A stretch of 63,373 nucleotides of DNA from Candidatus Peregrinibacteria bacterium (GTDB taxonomy: Bacteria > Patescibacteriota > Gracilibacteria > CAIRYL01), in NCBI GenBank assembly GCA_016220175.1, contig JACRHZ010000075.1, positions 1 to 63,373 of the forward strand, given 5' to 3'. Shown here piece by piece: positions 3,284 through 33,981 of this stretch (the stretch's first letter is position 1; each line of letters opens with the position of its first letter). The notes beneath the pieces are model-generated. The model was not told the DNA's origin, did no database searches, and saw nothing but the letters and a program-made list of their open reading frames with translations. A program made the position numbers and the translations under genes.

Positions 3284-3504
3284 TTTTTTTGCCCAAATAC
3301 CTCCTCAAATGTATATCGCTCTCCTGTTTTTTTATAATGCTTGAGTTCTTGAAGAATAAATTCTTCTTCTTTTTTTGCCAAATAGTCTTGTGCACGGAAA
3401 TAATACTCCACAGCAGTATTCACGACTTTGCTTTTATTCGCAGCAGAAGTGACTTTTCCCCAGTTTTGAGGAGTGAAAGAAATGGTGCTTCTGACGACAC
3501 TCAT
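3211..3504 (-). CDS. ribbon-helix-helix antitoxin (CopG/Arc-like)
   Basis: 97 aa. The N-terminal STISFTPQNWGKV...VVNTAVEYYF segment looks like an RHH fold. It sits upstream of the RelE-like toxin. Its 3' end overlaps the toxin start by 73 nt in another frame. Confidence 0.55.
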   Translation of the reverse strand: MSVVRSTISFTPQNWGKVTSAANKSKVVNTAVEYYFRAQDYLAKKEEEFILQELKHYKKTGERYTFEEVFGQKKWKSSSSGKRKNSSKSLLKNLKKK

Positions 3505-3572
3505 AGGATTAGAATAGTATTACGAATATATCATATCGTAATACTATACAAAAGTCAAAAAAAATAGGAATT

Positions 3573-3599
3573 TTCTGTCGACGAACCCCGACGACAGAA
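3573..3599. repeat. TGTCGACG-type hairpin, copy 1
   Basis: ttctgtcgacgaaccccgacgacagaa. Imperfect palindrome shared with 21562, 29421 and 40727. Confidence 0.6.
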
Positions 3600-3688
3600 T
3601 CGCAAGTTCTATCGAGTGTTGCCTGCGATCAATATCGCTCACAATCTTGAATTCAAAATTCAAAATTCAAAATTTAGAATTTAAAATT

Positions 3689-5006: not shown

Positions 5007-5074
5007 AAGTACAAAGTACAAAGTACAAAATTAAAAAGTAGATAATGATTTTGTACTTTGTACTTTGTACTTTT
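5007..5074. repeat. heptamer (AGTACAA) inverted array forming a long hairpin
   Basis: aagtacaaagtacaaagtacaaaa ... ttttgtactttgtactttgtact. Lies between the membrane-protein stop and the eno start. Confidence 0.8.
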
Positions 5075-5444
5075 AGCTTTGTACTTCGGCGTATCCGCTC
5101 ATTCTCACTGCCACCTGCCCGATGATCGGAATCTTAAAGAATTTTCCTCTTGCGGCAAAAAATCCAACGAGGAAAAGTAAAGTAATTCCCACGGGAAGTG
5201 GAAAAAAAATTGATTTCAGAAAAAACTCATTTGGTTCTCCAGCTTCGAGTGCACGAATTGTATTTTGCACGTACCACAAATAAAAAATAACATCGAGAAG
5301 CGCAAAAGAAGTATTAAGAATGAGCGCTTGCCATAAGTGAAATAACGTCAGCGTATTTTTTTTCTCCTCCATAAGAATTCCCACAAACGCAATGGCTCCA
5401 AAGAAATACGCGAAGAAAATGAAAAATCTCGGATACTTCTCCAT
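5073..5444 (-). CDS. DUF4870-like small membrane protein
   Basis: 123 aa with 3-4 TM segments. HLWQALILN and [10 protein letters not shown] resemble the paralogue at 47625 (HHALQALYLG, GRYYKIPVV). Confidence 0.5.
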
Positions 5445-24672: not shown

Positions 24673-24821
24673 GGTCAGGGTACCAAAAATTTTCTTCTGC
24701 CATCATACCGTTTTCTGCTGGAATTTGAAAAGAAGAAAATACAATTGACTGACAATTTGTGTTTTTGTAAATATTCTGTATTCTGAAAGTACATTCCTTT
24801 TTGTTTTTTTTCTTTCTTTTT

Positions 24822-25901
24822 ATGTCAAAAACTTCTGTAAAAGACCCGAGACATGAAGCACTTTTAAATGCTATGGCTCAGATTCAAAAACAATATGGAG
24901 AAGGTTCTATCATGAACCTTTCCAGCGCCGGAAAAATGAACGTAGAAACTATTCCAACAGGATCAATTTCACTCGATATTGCTCTTGGAGGAGGAATTCC
25001 CAAAGGGAGAGTTATTGAAGTATATGGACCGGAATCTTCCGGAAAAACGACACTCGCTCTTCATATCGCGGCGGAGTATCAGAAACGCGGTGGACAGGTC
25101 GCATTTATTGATGCCGAACATGCCCTTGATCCGGAGTATGCCAAAAGAATTGGGCTAAATCTCGAAAAATGTACCATTTCTCAGCCAGATTCTGGGGAAC
25201 AAGCACTCGAAATTGCTGAACTCCTCGTTCGTTCGGGCGCGATTGATCTCATCATTATAGACTCCGTTGCAGCTCTCGTTCCAAAAGCAGAAATTGAAGG
25301 AATGATGGGGGATTCGCACATGGGACTTCAAGCTCGTCTCATGAGCCAAGCACTTCGAAAACTCACAGGAATTGTGGGAAAAACAAAAACGACCATTATT
25401 TTCATTAATCAAATTCGCATGAAAATTGGGGTTATGTTTGGAAATCCAGAAACGACTACCGGCGGAAATGCGCTCAAATTTTATGCTTCTGTGCGAATGG
25501 ACATCAGACGAACGTCAAAAATTGAAACAGGATCAGGTGATACAAAAGAAGCTGTGGGAAATAGGGTAAAAGTGAAAGTGGTAAAGAATAAAATTGCTCC
25601 TCCGTTCAAATCAGCAGAGTTTGATATTATGTTTAATGAGGGAATTTCTCGAGTTGGAGATATTCTGGATACTGCCGTGCGTCTCGGAATTGTAAAAAAA
25701 TCAGGCGCATTCTTTACGTATAAAGAAACAAAACTTGGACAAGGTCGAGAGAACGCTAAAGACTTTCTGAAGACAAATCAAAAAATTTCAGATATTCTCG
25801 ATAAGGAGGTCCGAGAAATGGTGGCACGTGGCGAAGTTGAGCCAGTTCCTGCAATAATGGAAGAAGAGAACGGTGCGGAAAATGAAAAGATGGAGCTGTA
25901 G
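24822..25901 (+). CDS. recA: recombinase A
   Basis: [12 protein letters not shown] Walker [11 protein letters not shown] and [30 protein letters not shown]. Confidence 0.97.
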
Positions 25902-27245: not shown

Positions 27246-27307
27246 AAATTTGTAGTATTTAAAAGTATTTTATAGTATAATATCTACATAATATAATATT
27301 TTATACT

Positions 27308-27559
27308 ATGGTACACTATAATATTACACTCAATGAGGATCTTGCTGATGTAGTTGAATCTCAAATGAAGAGAAGAAGATTTGCGAATCGCAGTGAATTT
27401 TTTCGTGATCTCATTAGAAGTCAGTATGTCCTCATCGAGAATGAAAACATCCTCATAGAGGAAATTTCGCGAGATGATGCCGATTATGCTATCATAAAAA
27501 AGCGAGAAAAAAATGCGGAATTTATTCCATTAGAAAAAATACTGCGCTCAAAGAAATAA
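27308..27559 (+). CDS. ribbon-helix-helix antitoxin
   Basis: 83 aa, NITLNEDLADVV...RSEFFRDLIR (RHH). Directly upstream of the RelE-like ORF. Confidence 0.65.
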   Translation: MVHYNITLNEDLADVVESQMKRRRFANRSEFFRDLIRSQYVLIENENILIEEISRDDADYAIIKKREKNAEFIPLEKILRSKK

Positions 27560-27835: not shown

Positions 27836-28068
27836 AACTGGATTATGTGTGAAAATATTCCCCACGAAAATGCAAGTGAATTTTTTTGCAAAGTGGAGTA
27901 CAAATAAAAAAACTTTTTTCACGGAATATGCCAAATTCAATGCTCACTATGCCAAACTGTAAAACTTCTTCGAAGTCTAATCGTAAATCTGCTCGTGCTT
28001 CTTTGAAGAGAAAGAAAAAGATTGTAAAAAAGGGAAGAAAAAATTCGTGAACTTCTTACAATTTTACA

Positions 28069-28932
28069 TCAGCACTTTGCGACATGTGCGGGTGTGTGAT
28101 TCGCACGAACATGTTTTATCGATAATACCATCCAAGTAGCGAGCACAAATGGAGCAGTAAGAGCGATTATACCGAGTTTGTTCAGACCGAGGAAAAAGAG
28201 CACAGAGAGAATAATTGCAAAATTCGTAATCACAAATGAGTCCCACTTCTTCGTTCCTAACACTATGCCACAGAGTATGGCATTATATCCAAAAAGACCG
28301 ATATTTATCAGAGAAAGAGGCAAATGAAAAAATATCGCTAACAGATTCCCGAGTAATGATGCATAAAGTGCATAAAAAGCAGCAGTACGTGAATTTATTA
28401 AAATGCCAAAAAGAAAGAGGAGGCCAGTGATGGCATTCTCTTGGAACATCACCTGACCAATTCCAATGCTGATTGCTGAAAATAAATCGAGCAATGCGGT
28501 TTGTGGCAATGCTGATATCAGCAAAGGGGAAGCATGAAGAAATTTTATACCAAAAATTCCCATCCAGGTACTCAGAACGAATGGTGCAGTAAAAGCAGGG
28601 ATTCTTTTTTGTATTGCATGCATGATAACGCTAGAGAGTGCGGAGCTAATAATTATAGCAAGCGCTGTAGCGACGTTGACCCCAAAGAAAAACCAAATGG
28701 CAATTCCGACAAGTGTTCCATTGAATCCATACAAACCGTTTTTAATATCTTCCTGAGGATATTTGAGAAACACAGCGAAAATACTTCCAACAATGTTTCC
28801 GAGAATTGCTCCGAGTCCCAAAATCCAGGAGTTGTAAAATATTCCGACTAAAAATAAGAGCCCGGTCAAAGCATTATTTTGAAGCATCACTTGGCCAACT
28901 CCACGGAGTATTATTTGGACGGAATCTCGCAT
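28069..28932 (-). CDS. urea transporter (UT family)
   Basis: 287 aa, ~10 TM segments, internally duplicated. QVMLQNNALTGLLFLVGI and QVMFQENAITGLLFLFGI match UT-family signatures. Confidence 0.75.
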   Translation of the reverse strand: MRDSVQIILRGVGQVMLQNNALTGLLFLVGIFYNSWILGLGAILGNIVGSIFAVFLKYPQEDIKNGLYGFNGTLVGIAIWFFFGVNVATALAIIISSALSSVIMHAIQKRIPAFTAPFVLSTWMGIFGIKFLHASPLLISALPQTALLDLFSAISIGIGQVMFQENAITGLLFLFGILINSRTAAFYALYASLLGNLLAIFFHLPLSLINIGLFGYNAILCGIVLGTKKWDSFVITNFAIILSVLFFLGLNKLGIIALTAPFVLATWMVLSIKHVRANHTPAHVAKC

Positions 28933-28962
28933 AGAAAAAACTTGTCGCGTATAATGCTATAC

Positions 28963-29000
28963 TTCTTTTCCCAAAGAGTCACCCGTCCTTGGATGACTTC
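28963..29000 (+). repeat. 38-bp direct repeat, copy 1 (contains the GTCACCC...GGATGAC hairpin)
   Basis: ttcttttcccaaagagtcacccgtccttggatgacttc. About 90% identical to 30898-30935. Confidence 0.7.
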
Positions 29001-29035
29001 CTCGGAAGCTTGTGCAAGGGATTTCAATCTCGCCC

Positions 29036-29106
29036 TGGTGGAGAGGACGGGAATCGAACCCGCAAAATTAGGTCTCAACCCCAATTCGTACACCAGTACC
29101 CTCCCC
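29036..29106 (-). tRNA. atypical tRNA-like gene (71 nt with encoded CCA, UGA anticodon-like loop, truncated D-arm, no variable arm)
   Basis: Canonical T-arm (GCGGG-TTCGATT-CCCGT). 7-bp acceptor GGGGAGG/CCTCTCC followed by A-CCA. 7-nt loop GTTGAGA on a 5-7-bp stem. The D-arm is only GTAC-TGGT-GTAC. A 10-nt leader (GCCCTGGTGG) pairs with CCACCAGGGC at the 3' end. Confidence 0.4.
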
Positions 29107-29420
29107 ATAGCCACCAGGGCATGGTTGATAATACTTCCATGCAATGAGATACAAAAACGACCACTTCTTGCGAAATAGTCGTTTTTGCTGAGACCTAATT
29201 TATGCAGGCAGATGCCTGTGTACGAATTTGGGCATCACTATAATACAAAATTGAGTTCAAAAATTCAAGAGAAAATCATAGTTTTTACTTTGGGATCACA
29301 TCAAAAATTTGGGGAGAAAATAATCAAGCATATATTTTAGAGAGACGGAAAAGGAAGAATTTTTTATCAGTAACACCACGAACAAGCGCACGGAAGCCTT
29401 TGATTTTTCCACAGCGAAAA

Positions 29421-29445
29421 TGTGTCGACGAGGTCCGACGACACA
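29421..29445. repeat. TGTCGACG-type hairpin, copy 3
   Basis: tgtgtcgacgaggtccgacgacaca. Confidence 0.6.
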
Positions 29446-29479
29446 ATCGACATTTCTCTATGAAAAAAACCCAATCGTC

Positions 29480-29518
29480 GGTTCAACTCTTTTGAGTTGA
29501 ACCCTTCGTTTCTTTTTT
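29480..29518 (+). terminator. rho-independent terminator-like hairpin inside the IS110 5' arm
   Basis: GGTTCAACTC-tttt-GAGTTGAACC (10-bp perfect stem) followed by cttcgtttctttttt. Confidence 0.5.
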
Positions 29519-29536
29519 ACCATTAACTTACTTTTT

Positions 29537-29767
29537 TGATGAAAAGGAAACGTTGTGGAGCAACTCAAAAGAGTTGCTGGTATATTCAAAGTACTAAGAG
29601 ATATGTAAGAATCAAGGGAAAGGGAGTTGCGGAGAGTTACTTGAGAACAAATGTCTCGTGAGGGAGCATGCAATCCCTACTGTTTGTAACGAATGAGAAG
29701 GTTGTGGATTTCGCCACGTATCACTCACCAGCTTGTTAGGCAGTAGGACTCCCTTCCCTTTTCATCA
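29537..29767 (+). ncRNA. candidate IS110 bridge RNA
   Basis: An 11-bp long-range stem (29537-29547 with 29757-29767) closes a ~230-nt region with internal hairpins (agcaactc-aaaa-gagttgct). It sits directly upstream of the transposase ATG. It contains GAGGGAGC, complementary to the element 3' end GCTCCCTC. Confidence 0.4.
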
Positions 29768-29784
29768 TTTTACCCAATTTTTTT

Positions 29785-30738
29785 ATGAAATGCATCGGCA
29801 TTGATGTTTCCTCCAAGAAACTCAACATCTATAGGAATGATACTAAAGAGAGTTTTGAGATTGAAAACACACAAAATGCTTTAGAAAAATTTGAGAAGCA
29901 AAAGAAATTAGAATCTGATGAATATGTGATAGGGGTCGAATCAACTGGTCGATATCATTTTGTGTGTCAGGAGTACTTTGTTATGAAGGGATACGAATTT
30001 CGTTGTTTGAATCCACTTCTCACGAACAAAGTAATATTTGCGACTGTGCGAAAGAAAAAAACGGACAAATCAGATGCGGAAGTAATTGCATTTTTATTGA
30101 ATTTAGGAGAAGGACAAAAGGTAACAAAAGAACAACTGCGAACCACAAAGAGGACAATTCTCCGCACCAGAAAAAAATTGGTACATCAAAAGACAGTTTT
30201 GAAATTATTACTTCAGGAACTAGGAAAAGAGCATCAAAACAAGGGCATTACGGAAACAAAAGCTTCTCTTCAAAGAGTTCTCATAACGATCGAAGATGAA
30301 ATAAAAGTATTGGAGAAAGAGGCAATGGGAGTTTCTGAAACGAAGGCAGAAAAACTCATTCGATCAATTCCTGGATTTGCTACGCAACTCGCAGGAGTGG
30401 TCGCGACAGAAGTTGGAGATTTTACGAGGTTTTCTGCTGCAACGCAGTTTAAGGCGTATGTCGGGATTGATCCGAAAGTATCTCAGTCAGGGGCAACTCA
30501 TTACACCGGAAAAATAACAAAGAGGGGAAATCCGTATCTTCGATGCGCATTCTATCTTGCCGCACAAGTCGCGAGACAACATGATCCGGAACTGAAAGCT
30601 TTTTACGAGAAAAAAATAGGGGAAGGAAAAAACTTCAGAGTGGCAATTTGTGCAGTTGCGAGAAAGCTCTGTGAAAGAGTTTACGCCGTAGTAATGAGAG
30701 GTGTTCCTTACCAAATACGAGAACTCTCTTTCTCTTGA
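29785..30738 (+). CDS. IS110-family transposase (DEDD RuvC-like N-domain plus Ser C-domain)
   Basis: IGIDVS, GVESTGRYH, KTDKSDAEVIA, IPGFATQLAGVVATEVGDFTRF, and GIDPKVSQSG...KRGNPYLR. Confidence 0.92.
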   Translation: MKCIGIDVSSKKLNIYRNDTKESFEIENTQNALEKFEKQKKLESDEYVIGVESTGRYHFVCQEYFVMKGYEFRCLNPLLTNKVIFATVRKKKTDKSDAEVIAFLLNLGEGQKVTKEQLRTTKRTILRTRKKLVHQKTVLKLLLQELGKEHQNKGITETKASLQRVLITIEDEIKVLEKEAMGVSETKAEKLIRSIPGFATQLAGVVATEVGDFTRFSAATQFKAYVGIDPKVSQSGATHYTGKITKRGNPYLRCAFYLAAQVARQHDPELKAFYEKKIGEGKNFRVAICAVARKLCERVYAVVMRGVPYQIRELSFS

Positions 30739-30897
30739 TTTTGATATAGAAGGCTCCCTCGGAAAACGTTTCAGAGCAATCGAGACGATTGCTCCAGCAC
30801 AAGATTTTTCTATTTTGATATTCGGTCTAAATCTTCTTCGATAATTTTTATCAATGCCGGGGTATCGTCAACCAATGTGGCAGTATCGGAGCTTGAA

Positions 30898-30935
30898 TTC
30901 TTTCCCCAAAGAGTCACCCGTCCTCGGGTGACCTC
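30898..30935 (+). repeat. 38-bp direct repeat, copy 2
   Basis: ttctttccccaaagagtcacccgtcctcgggtgacctc. Followed by the GC hairpin GAGTCGCCCC-agga-GGGGCGACTC (30936-30959). Confidence 0.7.
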
Positions 30936-30969
30936 GAGTCGCCCCAGGAGGGGCGACTCTTAGGAAAAC

Positions 30970-31038
30970 GAGAGGTGTTCCTTACCAAATACGGCAACTT
31001 TCTTTATCTTGATTTTGATATAGAAGGCTCTCTCGAAA
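30970..31038 (+). mobile_element. solo copy of the IS110 3' end (last ~14 codons plus right end)
   Basis: About 90% identical to 30696-30765 (gagaggtgttccttaccaaatacg...cttgattttgatatagaaggctc). It would encode RGVPYQIRQLSLS*. Confidence 0.65.
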
Positions 31039-31139
31039 GGACCAAAACTCAGGAAAGGTCATGCGTGGATGCATGCCCCCCACGAAATATTACTAATAAA
31101 TTTTTCTTAAAAAAAGCCAGAAGAATTAACATAAAATTC

Positions 31140-31467
31140 TAGCACTCAGAATAAAGAAGTGCTAATATCACCGAGTCCTTCTCTGCTAAGATGAAGGAGC
31201 CGATGGTGAGAAAATGGCGACATGAAGAATATAAGCCATAATCACCAAAGGGCGCCACCGACGCGCGTCGGTGGTCGGAACCTTATAAGGGTACGACGTA
31301 AGTCGTGGTCAGATAGGGGATCCAAACTCGGGAAAGAGTTCCGAGCGGGAGAAATCCCAACCAATCGGAATCTTAGCCACGCAAGTGGCTGAGGATTCCA
31401 AAAGAACTCAGAACCGAGAGAGTCAGGCTCTTAAAAAAAGAGCTTGACTCACCGAGTCCTTTTTTTG
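31140..31467 (+). ncRNA. structured non-coding region upstream of the RT (candidate RT-associated ncRNA)
   Basis: No ORF. Visibly GC-richer than other spacers. Stems at 31140-31164, 31205-31246, 31255-31274, 31367-31399 (GCAA loop) and 31420-31450 (13 bp). Small hairpin GACTC-acc-GAGTC plus a T7 run at the 3' end. Bracketed by a 13-nt direct repeat. Confidence 0.45.
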
Positions 31468-31483
31468 TTATCTCTTTAATCAC

Positions 31484-32734
31484 ATGCCAATATCTCTCCA
31501 AAACTTGAGCAAAATAAGGTCACTCGAAACGGCTTGGGGGTTAGTAAAAAGTAGAAAATCTATTGAAAGTCGGAAGAACTCACGAGGAATTGATAAGGTC
31601 AGTTTAGAAGATTTCGAAAAAAATTTATCAGAAAACCTTAACTTAATCAGCAATAAATTAAGAAATAACTCTTATGAACCAGATTCAGTTAAAATAGTTC
31701 CACAAAAAAAAGAAAATGGTAAATATCGATTCATAGCTGTACCTACAATAAGAGATAGAATAGTACAAAGAGCAATGTTGGAGTTATTTATGCCATATAT
31801 AAAAAATATTATACAAACTGGGGTGAGTTATTGTGGTGTGAAAAATGATGAAAATGAAGCTATGTGTACTAAAAAAGCTGTTAAAAAAATTATAGATCAC
31901 ATTAAAAATGGTCTCTTTTGGTTTTTTAAGTCAGATATAGAGGGCTTTTTTGATAATATACCTAAGAAATCGATTCTTAAAAAAATTCAAAATAAAATTC
32001 CATTAAGCGAAGAGGTTTTTAAGCTGACAAAAAAATACATTCATTATCAAGTTGGCAACCCTGAGGTATTCCAAAAACACAGGCTAAAAATACCTGACGA
32101 TATATTAGGAATAACACAAGGATCGGCTCTTTCACCAGTCTTTGCTAATTTATATTTAGCCGATTTTGACAGAAAAGTAAAAAAAGTTTTTGGAGACAGA
32201 TTTATTAGATATGTGGATGACTTTGTCGTTATATGTAAAGATCAAAAAGAGGCAAAAGAAGCATTGAATTTTTTAAAAGATGAGATAAAAAAAATAGACC
32301 TCAGTTTGCCAAACGAAAACAAGAAAGATTCAAAAACAAGGACTGGAAACCTGCGAGCTTCAAATAAAATTGATTTTTTAGGCTTAGCCATTGATCGTAA
32401 TAGGATTTGTCCAAAAGGCGGAATTAAAGAGTTGAGATTTAAAATACAAAATAAGTTGAAACTAAAAAAGAAAAATGGGGAAGAATATAAATCTGTAAAA
32501 CGCAATGGAAAAGAATATAGTGTTCGTGAGCAAATCGAAGAAAAAATCATGGGATGGGCAAAGCATTACAGTTTCTACCATGTAAAAGAACTATATGAGT
32601 CTTTAGATATCTTCATAAGAGAAAGAGCGAAAAACACAAAACTTTTGAAAGGAATGATTGGATTAGGAACAATAAAATTGTCACCTATCATCTCTGAAGG
32701 CGATTGGCAAAAAATGTTCTCAACAAAACATTAG
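31484..32734 (+). CDS. reverse transcriptase, group-II-intron-like, free-standing (no En domain, no intron RNA domains)
   Basis: RT0-7 motifs: GIDKVSLEDF, RFIAVPTIRDRIVQRA, SDIEGFFDNI, QGSALSPVFANLYL, YVDDF and IDFLGL. Thumb-like MGWAKHYSFY. Confidence 0.9.
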   Translation: MPISLQNLSKIRSLETAWGLVKSRKSIESRKNSRGIDKVSLEDFEKNLSENLNLISNKLRNNSYEPDSVKIVPQKKENGKYRFIAVPTIRDRIVQRAMLELFMPYIKNIIQTGVSYCGVKNDENEAMCTKKAVKKIIDHIKNGLFWFFKSDIEGFFDNIPKKSILKKIQNKIPLSEEVFKLTKKYIHYQVGNPEVFQKHRLKIPDDILGITQGSALSPVFANLYLADFDRKVKKVFGDRFIRYVDDFVVICKDQKEAKEALNFLKDEIKKIDLSLPNENKKDSKTRTGNLRASNKIDFLGLAIDRNRICPKGGIKELRFKIQNKLKLKKKNGEEYKSVKRNGKEYSVREQIEEKIMGWAKHYSFYHVKELYESLDIFIRERAKNTKLLKGMIGLGTIKLSPIISEGDWQKMFSTKH

Positions 32735-32748
32735 CAAATTATTTCCTG

Positions 32749-33981
<1,233 letters not shown>

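What the first reader, a model, noticed from the sequence alone, without database searches (positions are those of the whole stretch)
31040..32734. Free-standing group-II-intron-like reverse transcriptase preceded by a ~330-nt densely structured non-coding RNA region
The 416-aa ORF has every RT finger/palm motif in group-II-like form: GIDKVSLEDF, RFIAVPTIRDRIVQRA, SDIEGFFDNI, QGSALSPVFANLYL, YVDDF and IDFLGL. It also has a maturase-like thumb (MGWAKHYSFY). It has no endonuclease or DNA-binding tail. No intron domain V/VI can follow it, because its stop is 14 nt from the stop of the convergent tgt. No Cas genes and no retron-type effector gene are nearby. The 440 nt upstream carry no ORF. Region 31140-31467 is visibly GC-richer than any other spacer in this AT-rich window and is almost entirely stem-loops. 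The stems are at 31140-31164, 31205-31246 (nested), 31255-31274 (8 bp with a GCGC loop), 31367-31399 (GCAA tetraloop) and 31420-31450 (13 bp, just before the start codon). A small hairpin and a T7 run follow, 17 nt before the ATG. The RT gene is more A/T-rich than its housekeeping neighbours and sits in an IS-laden island, which suggests horizontal acquisition. A single RT plus an upstream structured ncRNA is the layout of ncRNA-templated defence RTs (DRT2/DRT9-like). The RT motifs, however, look group-II-like rather than retron- or Abi-like. This could therefore be an undescribed RT-ncRNA lineage. The alternatives are a G2L-type repair RT or a decayed class-C intron.
Basis: partly seen in the sequence, partly recalled or inferred. 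Interest (0 to 1): 0.85.

Follow-up and report, generated by a model that had tools for sequence, protein, structure and literature searches.

The report
Intron-like reverse transcriptase with RNA partner
A stand-alone reverse transcriptase related to group II intron enzymes is always encoded directly behind its own ~300-nt, tightly folded non-coding RNA in a small family found mainly in candidate-phyla bacteria; this looks like an undescribed enzyme-plus-RNA module whose function is not yet known.

Summary
ORF 31484-32734 encodes an intact 416-aa group-II-like RT. The spacer before it is the G+C-richest and by far the most structured in the window (z -10 to -14).

The RT belongs to a discrete family of about 40 clusters at 50% identity, mostly in CPR bacteria; the window's host is Peregrinibacteria-like. 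Its nearest solved relative is the free-standing G2L4 RT (TM 0.72), followed by group II intron RTs. It is not UG17/DRT10, DRT2, DRT9, a retron or a DGR RT.

No intron RNA domains occur beside any member, although Rfam does find them at true introns. In 13 of 14 family loci the ~310-nt leader is strongly structured (z -4.1 to -9.9). Controls and 16 non-family G2L loci are not.

A conserved promoter sits at a fixed distance from the first hairpin. Hairpins recur with different stem sequences, and the terminal hairpin is specific to family loci. Neighbouring genes vary and are often defence or mobile genes.

Best reading: a domesticated G2L RT working with a dedicated leader RNA as scaffold or template. 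A G2L4-like repair enzyme with a regulatory leader is the main rival. The function is untested.

The parts
31140..31168 (+). Putative sigma-70 promoter of the module: -35-like TAGCAC (31140-31145), 17-nt spacer, extended -10 TGCTAATAT (31160-31168).
   Evidence: An extended -10 (TGnTAnnnT) ends 16-18 nt before the TAARRT loop in 10 of 15 loci. The best promoter-like match sits at the same position in 12 of 14 loci, and 5 loci reach 9/12 or better. The strict scanner does not call it in the window because the -35 is poor.
31175..31483 (+). Structured non-coding leader RNA of about 300 nt. The 5' end is predicted from the promoter; the 3' end is unknown, either at the T-run near 31467 or continuous with the RT mRNA.
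   Evidence: z = -9.9 to -10.2. It is the outlier among window spacers. Homologous leaders have z -4.1 to -9.9 in 13 of 14 loci. There is no Rfam match and no conserved ORF.
31176..31198 (+). Hairpin P2 with the conserved loop motif UAAG(A)U.
   Evidence: Fold. In the anchored hairpin test across 13 loci the stems differ in sequence; Fisher combined p = 5e-6.
31204..31247 (+). Nested hairpin P3 (outer 31204-31209/31242-31247, inner 31214-31218/31235-31239).
   Evidence: Fold. A homologous AUGUGAAAACAU-type hairpin is present in most homologues.
31254..31275 (+). Hairpin P4, 9 bp with a GCGC loop. It carries the family-wide CCNCC motif.
   Evidence: Fold. The pairing appears as CCACC/GGUGG, CCUCC/GGAGG or CCGC/GCGG in homologues, read directly from the aligned sequences.
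31277..31323 (+). Extended hairpin P5 with a GUAA tetraloop.
   Evidence: Fold.
31327..31418 (+). Three-way domain. A long-range closure (31327-31341 with 31404-31418) encloses Pb (31347-31358, GAAA loop) and Pc (31367-31399, GCAA loop). It contains the two copies of the CCGAG/GUUCCGAAA-type motif at 31341-31345 and 31414-31418.
   Evidence: Fold. The motif is duplicated 67-102 nt apart in at least 8 loci.
31420..31450 (+). Terminal hairpin Pe, 13 bp with an A-rich loop and the conserved 3' arm CUUGACUC.
   Evidence: Present in all 14 loci. 73.5% of cells are paired, against 54-55% when slid by one column. Model R2 hits every family locus (the seeds and duplicate contigs of two of them) and none of about 177 non-family RT loci below E 0.08. 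Partial cross-validation with R3.
31446..31467 (+). Small hairpin GACTC-ACC-GAGTC followed by T7: a terminator- or attenuator-like site. Window-specific.
   Evidence: Terminator scan. Absent from the homologues' sequences.
31484..32734 (+). Free-standing G2L-type reverse transcriptase, 416 aa: RT0-RT7, YVDD active site, thumb, and the family-specific C-terminal PIIS..W..xF motif. No endonuclease domain.

Best explanation
This is a two-part module: a conserved promoter, a highly structured non-coding leader RNA of about 300 nt, and a catalytically intact, free-standing group-II-intron-like (G2L-type) reverse transcriptase.

Shown:
- The RT belongs to a discrete family centred on CPR bacteria.
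- The leader is conserved as a structured element, with shared hairpins, in nearly all family loci and only there.
- No intron ribozyme, effector gene or Cas gene is linked to it.
- The neighbouring genes change from locus to locus, so RT and RNA are inherited as one unit.

Inferred:
- The RT binds this RNA, as group II intron RTs bind their intron RNA and as DRT and retron RTs bind their ncRNAs. Together they form a ribonucleoprotein.
- I consider it most likely that the RNA serves as scaffold and internal template for cDNA synthesis.
- The product would act in phage defence or another conflict or maintenance function.
- Candidate landmarks for initiation and template boundaries are the twice-repeated GUUCCGAAA-type motif at the base of a closed three-way domain, and the sequence-conserved terminal hairpin.

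Likelihoods:
- RT plus RNA as a functional unit: about 0.8.
- RNA-templated cDNA synthesis: about 0.35-0.4.
- Antiviral role: about 0.3.
The confidence given for this entry (0.45) is for the explanation as a whole: an RNP in which the leader is a working partner of the RT rather than only a regulator of its expression.
For: RT class:
- Family profile against PDB: G2L4 172.6 bits over the full length, group IIC RT 158.9, Cas6-RT-Cas1 152.6, DRT2 58.9, DRT9 54.7.
- Foldseek on a pLDDT 90.9 model: G2L4 TM 0.72, GsI-IIC 0.68.
- NCBIfam group II RT/maturase 196.6 bits, below the cut-off of 300.

Discrete family:
- Members score 340 bits or more and align through the C-terminal motif. Below them is a gap, then a continuum at 272 bits or less.
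- The active site is YVDD or YIDD in 50 of 59 members; the outgroup is mostly YADD.

Leader RNA:
- Window z = -10.
- 13 of 14 family loci have z -4.1 to -9.9. RT coding sequence and far-upstream controls are near 0. 16 non-family G2L-type loci give +0.7 to -2.8.
- Upstream G+C exceeds RT G+C in all 13 loci.
- The closest-clade consensus has 73 pairs, 13 of them with compensatory changes.
- The P2 stems differ around a conserved loop, combined p = 5e-6.
- The terminal hairpin is specific to family loci and is recovered in held-out loci: L170 at E 1e-6, L163 at E 0.006, and as the top hit in its locus in four more.
- The sense strand folds better in 9 of 13 loci. 23 of 92 hairpin loops are GNRA.
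- A promoter sits at a fixed position.

Not an intron:
- No Rfam intron domain in the window or in 8 family loci at E up to 1. Positive controls were found at L019 and L022.

Context:
- The RT is solitary, with an upstream gap of 345 nt or more in every locus.
- Neighbours include RM systems, an AAA_15 ATPase, an SLFN-type helicase with MrcB, a TIR-SLATT pair, RhuM, recombinases and tRNA genes.
Against: - There is no direct evidence of RT-RNA binding, of cDNA, or of any phenotype.
- The closest characterised relative, G2L4, works on DNA ends without an RNA template (bioRxiv 10.1101/2022.03.14.484287; PMC12337344).
- Covariation in the best-conserved helix is not significant, because that helix is conserved in sequence.
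- A model built from the closest clade detects distant members only at noise level. One held-out locus (L167) was missed and one (L209) was weak.
- The strand test is not unanimous: 4 of 13 loci favour the antisense strand.
- A DRT2-style endless ORF from the unit between the repeats is excluded.
- The window's own neighbours are housekeeping genes.
- The leader is contiguous with the RT mRNA, so a purely cis-regulatory role would fit the same data.
Confidence: 0.45

Rival explanations
1. G2L4-like DNA repair polymerase. The RT acts on DNA ends (microhomology-mediated end joining, snap-back synthesis). The structured leader is a cis-acting 5' UTR that controls RT expression or activity, for example by autoregulatory binding or attenuation. 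It is not a template.
For: - G2L4 is the best sequence and structure match.
- The active site has a beta-branched residue (YVDD or YIDD in 50 of 59 members) like G2L4's YIDD, not the YADD of introns (PMC12337344).
- RT3a is long and aligns with the G2L4 plug region.
- G2L4 also has a conserved non-coding region of about 520 bp upstream that modulates its effect without changing protein level (bioRxiv 10.1101/2022.03.14.484287).
- The window has a terminator-like hairpin plus T7 between RNA and ORF.
Against: - Identity to G2L4 is only 25% (110 bits). Unclassified group-II-type RTs score higher against the family profile than G2L4 does: 272 bits or less against 172.6.
- The nearest outgroups also have a long RT3a, so that feature is not diagnostic.
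- G2L4's upstream region is two ~140-bp palindromic direct repeats, and nothing like that is present here.
- An RNA of 300 nt with at least 8 helices and many GNRA loops, conserved across the whole family, is large for a translational operator.
- The terminator-like site is not conserved.
Confidence: 0.3
2. A new kind of mobile retroelement. The leader plus RT mRNA is copied by the RT and inserted elsewhere, which would explain the varied genomic contexts and the flanking tRNA and recombinase genes.
For: - The contexts differ between loci, even between two Peregrinibacteria genomes.
- tRNA genes, IS elements or recombinases lie nearby in several loci.
- RT G+C is below its surroundings.
Against: - There is a single copy per locus and per window.
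- There is no endonuclease or integrase domain.
- No terminal repeats or target-site duplications are shared between loci. The 12-nt repeat in the window is not conserved.
- Nearby recombinases could move the island themselves.
Confidence: 0.07
3. Decayed group II intron. The upstream RNA is what remains of domains I-IV and the RT is a relic with no present function.
For: - The RT is group-II-like, with a weak maturase-domain match.
- The ORF follows a structured RNA, as it does in an intron.
Against: - No D1-D4 or DV/DVI match in the window or in 8 family loci at E up to 1, while true introns are detected.
- There is no room for DV/DVI in several loci.
- All catalytic residues are invariant across members that are 35-50% identical.
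- The leader keeps its structure across that same divergence. That means selection, not decay.
Confidence: 0.05
4. A divergent member of UG17/DRT10, the telomerase-like system that synthesises tandem-repeat DNA.
For: - The PADLOC RT_UG17 model is the second-best hit, at 151 bits.
- UG17 was formerly called G2L3 (PMC8632793).
- An ncRNA lies upstream.
- One homologous locus has a SLATT gene nearby.
Against: - G2L4 (107 bits) and ordinary group-II-type outgroup RTs (127-185 bits) score the same or higher on the UG17 model, so the hit is generic.
- The defining SLATT partner is absent from the window and from 11 of 12 loci. The one SLATT found is SLATT_1 paired with a TIR gene and lies convergent to the RT.
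- DRT10 ncRNAs are about 137 nt and lie upstream of the SLATT gene (PMC12632851).
Confidence: 0.03

Closest known systems
G2L4 reverse transcriptase (Pseudomonas aeruginosa; PDB 9D4S/9D5X)
   Same: - Free-standing RT of about 410 aa, of group II intron descent, with NTE/RT0, RT2a, a long RT3a and a thumb, and no endonuclease domain.
- Best sequence and structure match.
- A beta-branched residue in Y(I/V)DD.
- A conserved non-coding region upstream.
- Codon and G+C usage differ from the neighbours, and the genomic locations vary.
   Different: - Only 25% identity.
- YVDD rather than YIDD.
- The upstream element is a complex-folded RNA of about 300 nt, not two 140-bp palindromic direct repeats.
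- The family is centred on CPR bacteria, not Pseudomonas.
- A repair function has not been tested.
Mobile group II intron RNP (intron RNA plus intron-encoded RT/maturase)
   Same: - RT fold and motifs.
- The ORF is preceded by a structured RNA.
- The RT probably binds an RNA encoded at its own locus.
   Different: - No DI-DIV or DV/DVI ribozyme domains.
- No space downstream of the ORF.
- Below the NCBIfam cut-off.
- Single copy.
- YVDD instead of YADD.
DRT2 (UG2), a single RT plus upstream ncRNA that synthesises the neo gene by rolling-circle reverse transcription
   Same: The layout: promoter, a structured ncRNA of about 300 nt, an RT of about 400-500 aa, and no other protein. A repeated short motif flanks a closed RNA domain.
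   Different: - The RT is from another lineage: Drt2 model 79 bits against a cut-off of 390; DRT2 structure TM 0.50.
- No stop-free concatemer frame.
- No RNA homology was detected.
DRT10 / UG17 (formerly G2L3)
   Same: An RT historically classed as group-II-like that works with a structured ncRNA. It is the second-best PADLOC model.
   Different: - The required SLATT effector is absent.
- Its ncRNA is about 137 nt.
- The UG17 score is no better than for any other group-II-type RT.
Retrons and the RT-1 to RT-19 RNA motifs (Weinberg 2017, PMC5737381)
   Same: An RT gene next to a conserved structured RNA on one side only.
   Different: - The RT is not of retron type: 66.5 bits against a cut-off of 235.
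- No effector gene.
- No Rfam family matched, even at E up to 1.

Membership tests
Mobile group II intron | RT/maturase ORF with RT0-7 and the X/thumb domain | tested here: met
   RVT_1 1e-24, weak GIIM; TIGR04416 aligned 21-383; fold match to GsI-IIC RT, TM 0.68.
Mobile group II intron | Ribozyme domains I-IV upstream of and around the ORF | tested here: not met
   No group-II-D1D4 match at E up to 1 in the window region or in 8 family loci. The same library finds D1-D4 at L022.
Mobile group II intron | Domains V/VI downstream of the ORF | tested here: not met
   Only 14 nt separate the RT stop from the tgt stop. No RF00029 match in family loci. Positive controls at L019 and L022.
Mobile group II intron | Score at or above the NCBIfam equivalog cut-off (TIGR04416, 300 bits) | tested here: not met
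   196.6 bits.
G2L4 RT | Free-standing group-II-like RT without intron RNA | tested here: met
G2L4 RT | YIDD at the active site | tested here: not met
   The window has YVDD. Family counts: YVDD 43, YIDD 7, YADD 6, YCDD 1, and 2 with no match.
G2L4 RT | RT3a plug: the 9-aa insertion with conserved R190/R191 | tested here: inconclusive
   The region aligns with a similar length (NPEVFQKHRLK--IP against NIDDLRRKGLDEIFP), but the RR pair is not conserved. The nearest outgroup RTs also have a long RT3a.
G2L4 RT | Two ~140-bp palindromic long direct repeats with a ~240-bp spacer upstream | tested here: not met
   No such repeats in 28000-33000. The upstream region is a multi-hairpin RNA.
G2L4 RT | Function in double-strand-break repair by MMEJ | not testable with these tools
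   Needs genetics and biochemistry.
UG17 / DRT10 | Adjacent, co-evolving SLATT effector gene | tested here: not met
   None within about 9 kb on either side in the window. Absent from 11 of 12 homologous loci. L161 has a convergent TIR + SLATT_1 pair.
UG17 / DRT10 | RT scores specifically as UG17 | tested here: not met
   151 bits. G2L4 scores 107 and outgroup group-II-type RTs 127-185 on the same model.
UG17 / DRT10 | ~137-nt ncRNA with an A-B-A' template that yields tandem-repeat cDNA | not tested
   The leader is about 300 nt. No DRT10 covariance model was available, and the cDNA cannot be tested here.
DRT2 | RT of the UG2 lineage | tested here: not met
   NF041746 79.4 bits against a cut-off of 390; PDB DRT2 58.9 bits.
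DRT2 | ncRNA template whose concatemer forms a stop-free ORF (neo) | tested here: not met
   The unit between the repeated motifs has stops in all frames on both strands in 5 of 8 loci. Only this candidate unit was tested.
DRT9 | RT of the UG28 lineage | tested here: not met
   PADLOC Drt9 78 bits; PDB 9ioa 54.7 bits; TM 0.60.
Retron | Retron-type RT plus msr/msd and an effector | tested here: not met
   NF038233 66.5 bits against 235; Ec86 40 bits; no Rfam retron RNA; no effector.
CRISPR-associated RT | Fusion or adjacency to cas1/cas6 and a CRISPR array | tested here: not met
   The neighbours are pyrC, pyrB, recA, a peptidase, a urea transporter, IS110, tgt and proS. There is no fusion; the protein is 416 aa.

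The most novel reading that the evidence does not exclude
This is a previously undescribed class of RT-ncRNA system that arose from the group II intron/G2L lineage, independently of retrons and of the UG/Abi DRTs. A domesticated intron-type RT keeps a dedicated complex-folded RNA of about 300 nt, which is no longer a ribozyme intron, and reverse-transcribes part of it into a functional cDNA. The system serves immunity or genome maintenance in CPR bacteria with reduced genomes.
Probability: 0.35. Interest if true: 0.8.

Novelty: new variant of a known kind. Interest (0 to 1): 0.62.

Why it matters
Free-standing group-II-like RTs are among the least understood bacterial RTs. Only G2L4 has an assigned function.

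All RT-ncRNA systems with known mechanisms (retrons, DRT2, DRT3, DRT9, DRT10) belong to other RT lineages. A G2L family that always travels with a large structured RNA would do three things:
- Show that RNA-partnered RTs also evolved directly from intron RTs.
- Give a concrete intermediate between mobile introns and domesticated RT systems.
- Offer a compact two-part module (RT plus RNA, about 1.6 kb) from CPR bacteria as a candidate for templated DNA synthesis tools.

It also prompts a second look at the unexplained conserved non-coding region upstream of G2L4.

Tried and rejected
- **Host guess.** I first guessed Leptospira. That was wrong: RecA places the window in Peregrinibacteria-like CPR bacteria. 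The IS110 transposase gave no host information.
- **Missing Shine-Dalgarno as a regulatory clue.** Rejected. Only 4 of 42 window genes have one.
- **DRT2-like endless ORF from the unit between the repeats.** Rejected.
- **CTTGACT in the terminal hairpin as a second promoter for the RT.** Rejected. There is no consistent -10 or spacing in the homologues (sequences).
- **Covariance model R1 from the four closest sequences.** Too narrow. Distant members score 11-13 bits.
- **RNAalifold on broad MAFFT alignments.** On the closest clade it preferred a long-range pairing (GGUGGA/UCCGCC) that distant members do not support.
- **Strict promoter scanner.** It does not call the window's promoter. The case rests on positional conservation.
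- **Regex measure of RT3a length.** It matched too few family members to use. It did show that the nearest outgroups also have a long RT3a.
- **Metagenome and viral scans.** They added no clear family members. L081 and L003 lack the RNA, and no viral member exceeds 30% identity.
- **The 12-nt direct repeat at both ends of the window RNA, and the hairpin plus T7.** Not conserved in the homologues.
- **Minerva preprint (10.64898/2026.09.22.753630).** It could not be opened. Term counts show DRT 18 times and G2L 0 times, so I cannot exclude that it describes related ncRNAs.
- **First window-spacer scan.** It timed out and was rerun with mononucleotide shuffles.
Full report
**1. The observation**

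The ORF 31484..32734 (+) encodes a 416-aa protein with all the quoted RT motifs. Pfam finds RVT_1 (1e-24) and a weak maturase/thumb match (GIIM, E 0.009). Its stop is 14 nt from the stop of the convergent tgt gene.

The spacer upstream is G+C-rich, up to 0.53 against 0.25-0.34 inside the RT gene. Region 31040-31483 folds to -163.7 kcal/mol, z = -10.2 against dinucleotide shuffles. Among the 13 window spacers of 200 nt or more it has the highest G+C and by far the most extreme folding score: z = -14.3 with mononucleotide shuffles, against -0.2 to -5.7 for the others.

**2. What kind of RT it is**

- NCBIfam's group II RT/maturase model gives 196.6 bits, below its cut-off of 300. The Drt2, Drt3a, retron, Drt4 and AbiA models score far lower.
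- A profile of the family finds G2L4 RT best among solved structures (172.6 bits, aligned end to end). Next come a group IIC intron RT (158.9), Cas6-RT-Cas1 (152.6) and GsI-IIC RT (139). DRT2 and DRT9 reach only 55-59 bits.
- An AlphaFold model (pLDDT 90.9) matches G2L4 best (TM 0.72), then GsI-IIC (0.68).
- The pairwise alignment with G2L4 runs from residue 7 to 382 and includes the long RT3a segment.
- PADLOC's second-best model is RT_UG17 (151 bits). This is generic: G2L4 scores 107 bits and ordinary group-II-type outgroup RTs 127-185 bits on the same model.

The RT therefore belongs to the group II/G2L/CRISPR-RT superclade, not to UG/Abi, retrons or DGRs.

**3. A discrete family**

- Word-indexed and exhaustive searches show a clear set of relatives at 35-50% identity. 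In the 50%-identity library there are about 40 clusters at 340 bits or more. They all align through a family-specific C-terminal motif (PIIS..W..xF).
- Below them is a gap, then a continuum of other group-II-type RTs at 272 bits or less.
- The active site is YVDD or YIDD in 50 of 59 members. The outgroup is mostly YADD.
- Named members come from Gracilibacteria, Peregrinibacteria and 'Patescibacteria group' genomes.
- The window itself is Peregrinibacteria-like. Its RecA is 76-81% identical to Peregrinibacteria RecA, including that of genome CP065009, which carries family member P0007 at a different locus.
- No close member was found in viral contigs.

**4. Not an intron, and no linked protein partner**

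- Rfam at E up to 1 finds no intron domain or any other known RNA next to the RT, either in the window or in eight family loci. The whole window has no gathering-level hit.
- The same library detects D1-D4 and DV/DVI at true introns among distant relatives (L019, L022). The closer non-family relatives (L004-L018) are also free-standing.
- In every family locus the RT is solitary, with an upstream gene-free gap of 345 nt or more. The neighbours vary: RM systems, an AAA_15 ATPase, an SLFN-type helicase with MazG and MrcB, a TIR-SLATT pair, RhuM with LexA-like genes, serine recombinases, tRNA genes, or plain housekeeping genes.
- In the window the neighbours are pyrC, pyrB, recA, an M16 peptidase, a urea transporter, one IS110 transposase, tgt and proS.

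**5. The leader RNA is conserved with the RT**

- G+C: the 450 nt upstream are 6-22 points richer in G+C than the RT gene in all 13 loci examined.
- Alignment-free structure test: the 310-nt leader has z between -4.1 and -9.9 in 13 of 14 family loci. RT coding and far-upstream controls scatter around 0. The borderline relative L003 (32% identity) has z = -1.2.
- Specificity: sixteen non-family G2L-type loci give +0.7 to -2.8, so the structured leader is specific to this family.
- Shared elements:
  - a hairpin with a UAARRU loop;
  - an AUGUGAAAACAU-type hairpin;
  - a hairpin carrying a CCNCC motif, paired as CCACC/GGUGG, CCUCC/GGAGG or CCGC/GCGG;
  - a three-way domain whose base carries two copies of a GUUCCGAAA-type motif, 67-102 nt apart;
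  - a terminal 9-14-bp hairpin (GARGUCRAGG...CCUUGACUUC) with an A-rich loop, 15-40 nt before the start codon.
- Consensus structure: the closest clade gives 73 pairs, 13 of them with compensatory changes.
- UAARRU hairpin: the stems differ between loci (UCCUUC/GAAGGA, GUUCCAC/GUGGAAU, CGCGGUGCG/UGCACUGUG, CUCUCA/UGAGAG and others). The anchored test against shuffled flanks gives a combined p of 5e-6.
- Terminal hairpin:
  - It keeps register: 73.5% of cells are paired, against 54-55% when slid by one column.
  - It is conserved in sequence, so covariation is not significant.
  - Model R2 finds it in every family locus. These hits are expected, because the model was built from the 14 loci; L162 and L164 are duplicate contigs. 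It finds nothing below E 0.08 in about 177 non-family RT loci.
  - A six-seed model recovers held-out L170 (E 1e-6) and L163 (E 0.006). With filters off it ranks the true site first within its locus in L168, L166, L169 and L208. L209 is weak and L167 is missed.
- Strand: the sense strand folds better in 9 of 13 loci, by 17-34 kcal/mol in the window's clade. GNRA loops make up 23 of 92 hairpin loops.
- Coding potential: small ORFs in the leaders are not conserved.

**6. Promoter and RNA ends**

An extended -10 (TGnTAnnnT) ends 16-18 nt before the UAARRU loop in 10 of 15 loci.
- The best -35/-10 match lies at that position in 12 of 14 loci, and 5 loci reach 9/12 or better, for example TTGACT-17-TAAAAT in L002.
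- In the window: TAGCAC (31140-31145), a 17-nt spacer, then TGCTAATAT (31160-31168). This predicts a start near 31175, at the base of the first hairpin. The strict scanner does not call it because the -35 is poor.
- The 3' end is unknown. The window has a small hairpin plus T7 run (31446-31467), but homologues do not.
- The lack of a Shine-Dalgarno sequence is normal for this genome: only 4 of 42 genes have one.

**7. Mechanism**

Shown: RT and leader RNA form one conserved, self-contained unit, without an intron ribozyme or a partner protein.

Inferred: the RT binds this RNA. Relatives on both sides do the equivalent: intron RTs bind intron RNA, and DRT and retron RTs bind ncRNAs. I rate an RNP in which the RNA is scaffold and internal template for cDNA synthesis as most likely, at about 0.35-0.4 for templating. 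Its size, GNRA-rich multi-helix fold and strict family-wide linkage exceed what a translational operator needs. The duplicated motif at the base of a closed domain resembles the template-boundary or re-alignment elements of DRT2 and DRT10 (PMC11100668, PMC12632851).

A DRT2-type endless ORF from that unit is excluded.

The main rival, at about 0.3, is a G2L4-like repair polymerase with a regulatory leader. Three things support it:
- G2L4 is the nearest characterised relative.
- The family has the beta-branched Y(V/I)DD.
- G2L4 has its own unexplained, activity-modulating non-coding region upstream (bioRxiv 10.1101/2022.03.14.484287; PMC12337344).

A decayed intron, UG17/DRT10 membership and a new retroelement are each unlikely (see the rival explanations).

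**8. Comparison with known systems, and novelty**

- It works most like the RT-ncRNA modules (the DRT2 layout). By descent it is a sister of G2L4 and the group II RTs.
- It fails defining features of every named family tested (see the membership table).
- I found no description of a G2L-type RT with a dedicated structured RNA in the searchable literature.
- UG17, formerly G2L3, is now DRT10 and requires a SLATT partner (PMC8632793, PMC12632851, bioRxiv 10.64898/2026.04.29.721553).
- The RT-1 to RT-19 motifs (PMC5737381) were not detected by the Rfam scans.
- One recent preprint on ncRNA mining could not be read.
- I rate this a new variant of a known kind: an RT-plus-ncRNA module in a new RT lineage with a new RNA.

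All evidence is computational. Function and mechanism remain to be tested.

Noticed in passing
window 24801-25901 (recA) and the whole window: The host is a Peregrinibacteria-like CPR bacterium. Its RecA is 76-81% identical to Ca. Peregrinibacteria RecA. Only 4 of 42 genes have a Shine-Dalgarno-like sequence. There are no tRNA genes and no Rfam gathering-level hit in 63 kb.
   Followed up: partly
window 29036-29106 (-): A 71-nt tRNA-like element with an acceptor stem, a T-arm and a 3' CCA. It matches the ends of the Rfam tmRNA model at 32 bits (gathering score 47). ARAGORN calls nothing there. It may be a tRNA or tmRNA fragment marking an integration site.
   Followed up: no
window 28956-31038: An IS110-family transposase gene lies at 29785-30738. 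Its 3' end (30693-30764) is duplicated at 30967-31038 (90%). A 45-nt repeat occurs at 28956-29000 and 30891-30935. A perfect 16-bp inverted repeat (29484-29499/29561-29576) lies upstream of the transposase gene and could belong to an IS110 bridge-RNA region; that link is from memory and was not tested.
   Followed up: no
window 31169-31180 and 31450-31461: A 12-nt direct repeat CACCGAGTCCTT, part of a 28-nt repeat at 79% identity. One copy sits at the predicted 5' end of the leader RNA and the other just after its terminal hairpin. It is not conserved in homologues.
   Followed up: partly
window 27246-27555 (+), 3375-3684 (-), 28933-29242 (-), 5015-5324 (-): Other intergenic tiles with moderately strong folding signals (z -4.5 to -5.7 with mononucleotide shuffles). 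They have no Rfam match and could be further unannotated RNAs.
   Followed up: no
L161 5281-6089 and L162 2249-3057: In the Gracilibacteria homologue a ThsB-type TIR gene and a SLATT_1 gene lie convergent, immediately downstream of the family RT. No other family locus shows this pairing.
   Followed up: partly
L207 2255-2327, L001 4748-4819, L163 452-665: tRNA genes lie close to the RT-RNA module in several homologous loci. This fits insertion of the module, or of its island, at tRNA genes.
   Followed up: no
L165 3831-3876, and the equivalent copy-1 regions in other loci: The model of 'second GUUCCGAAA copy plus terminal hairpin' also weakly matches the first copy plus its following hairpin (16.8 bits). 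This suggests an internal duplication of a motif-plus-hairpin unit within the RNA. Its meaning is unexplained.
   Followed up: partly
L001, L165, L207 (alignment A7): In the window's closest clade an alternative long-range pairing (GGUGGA with UCCGCC, CUGC with GCGG) competes with the two local hairpins P2 and P4. It may be a conformational switch or a coincidence.
   Followed up: no
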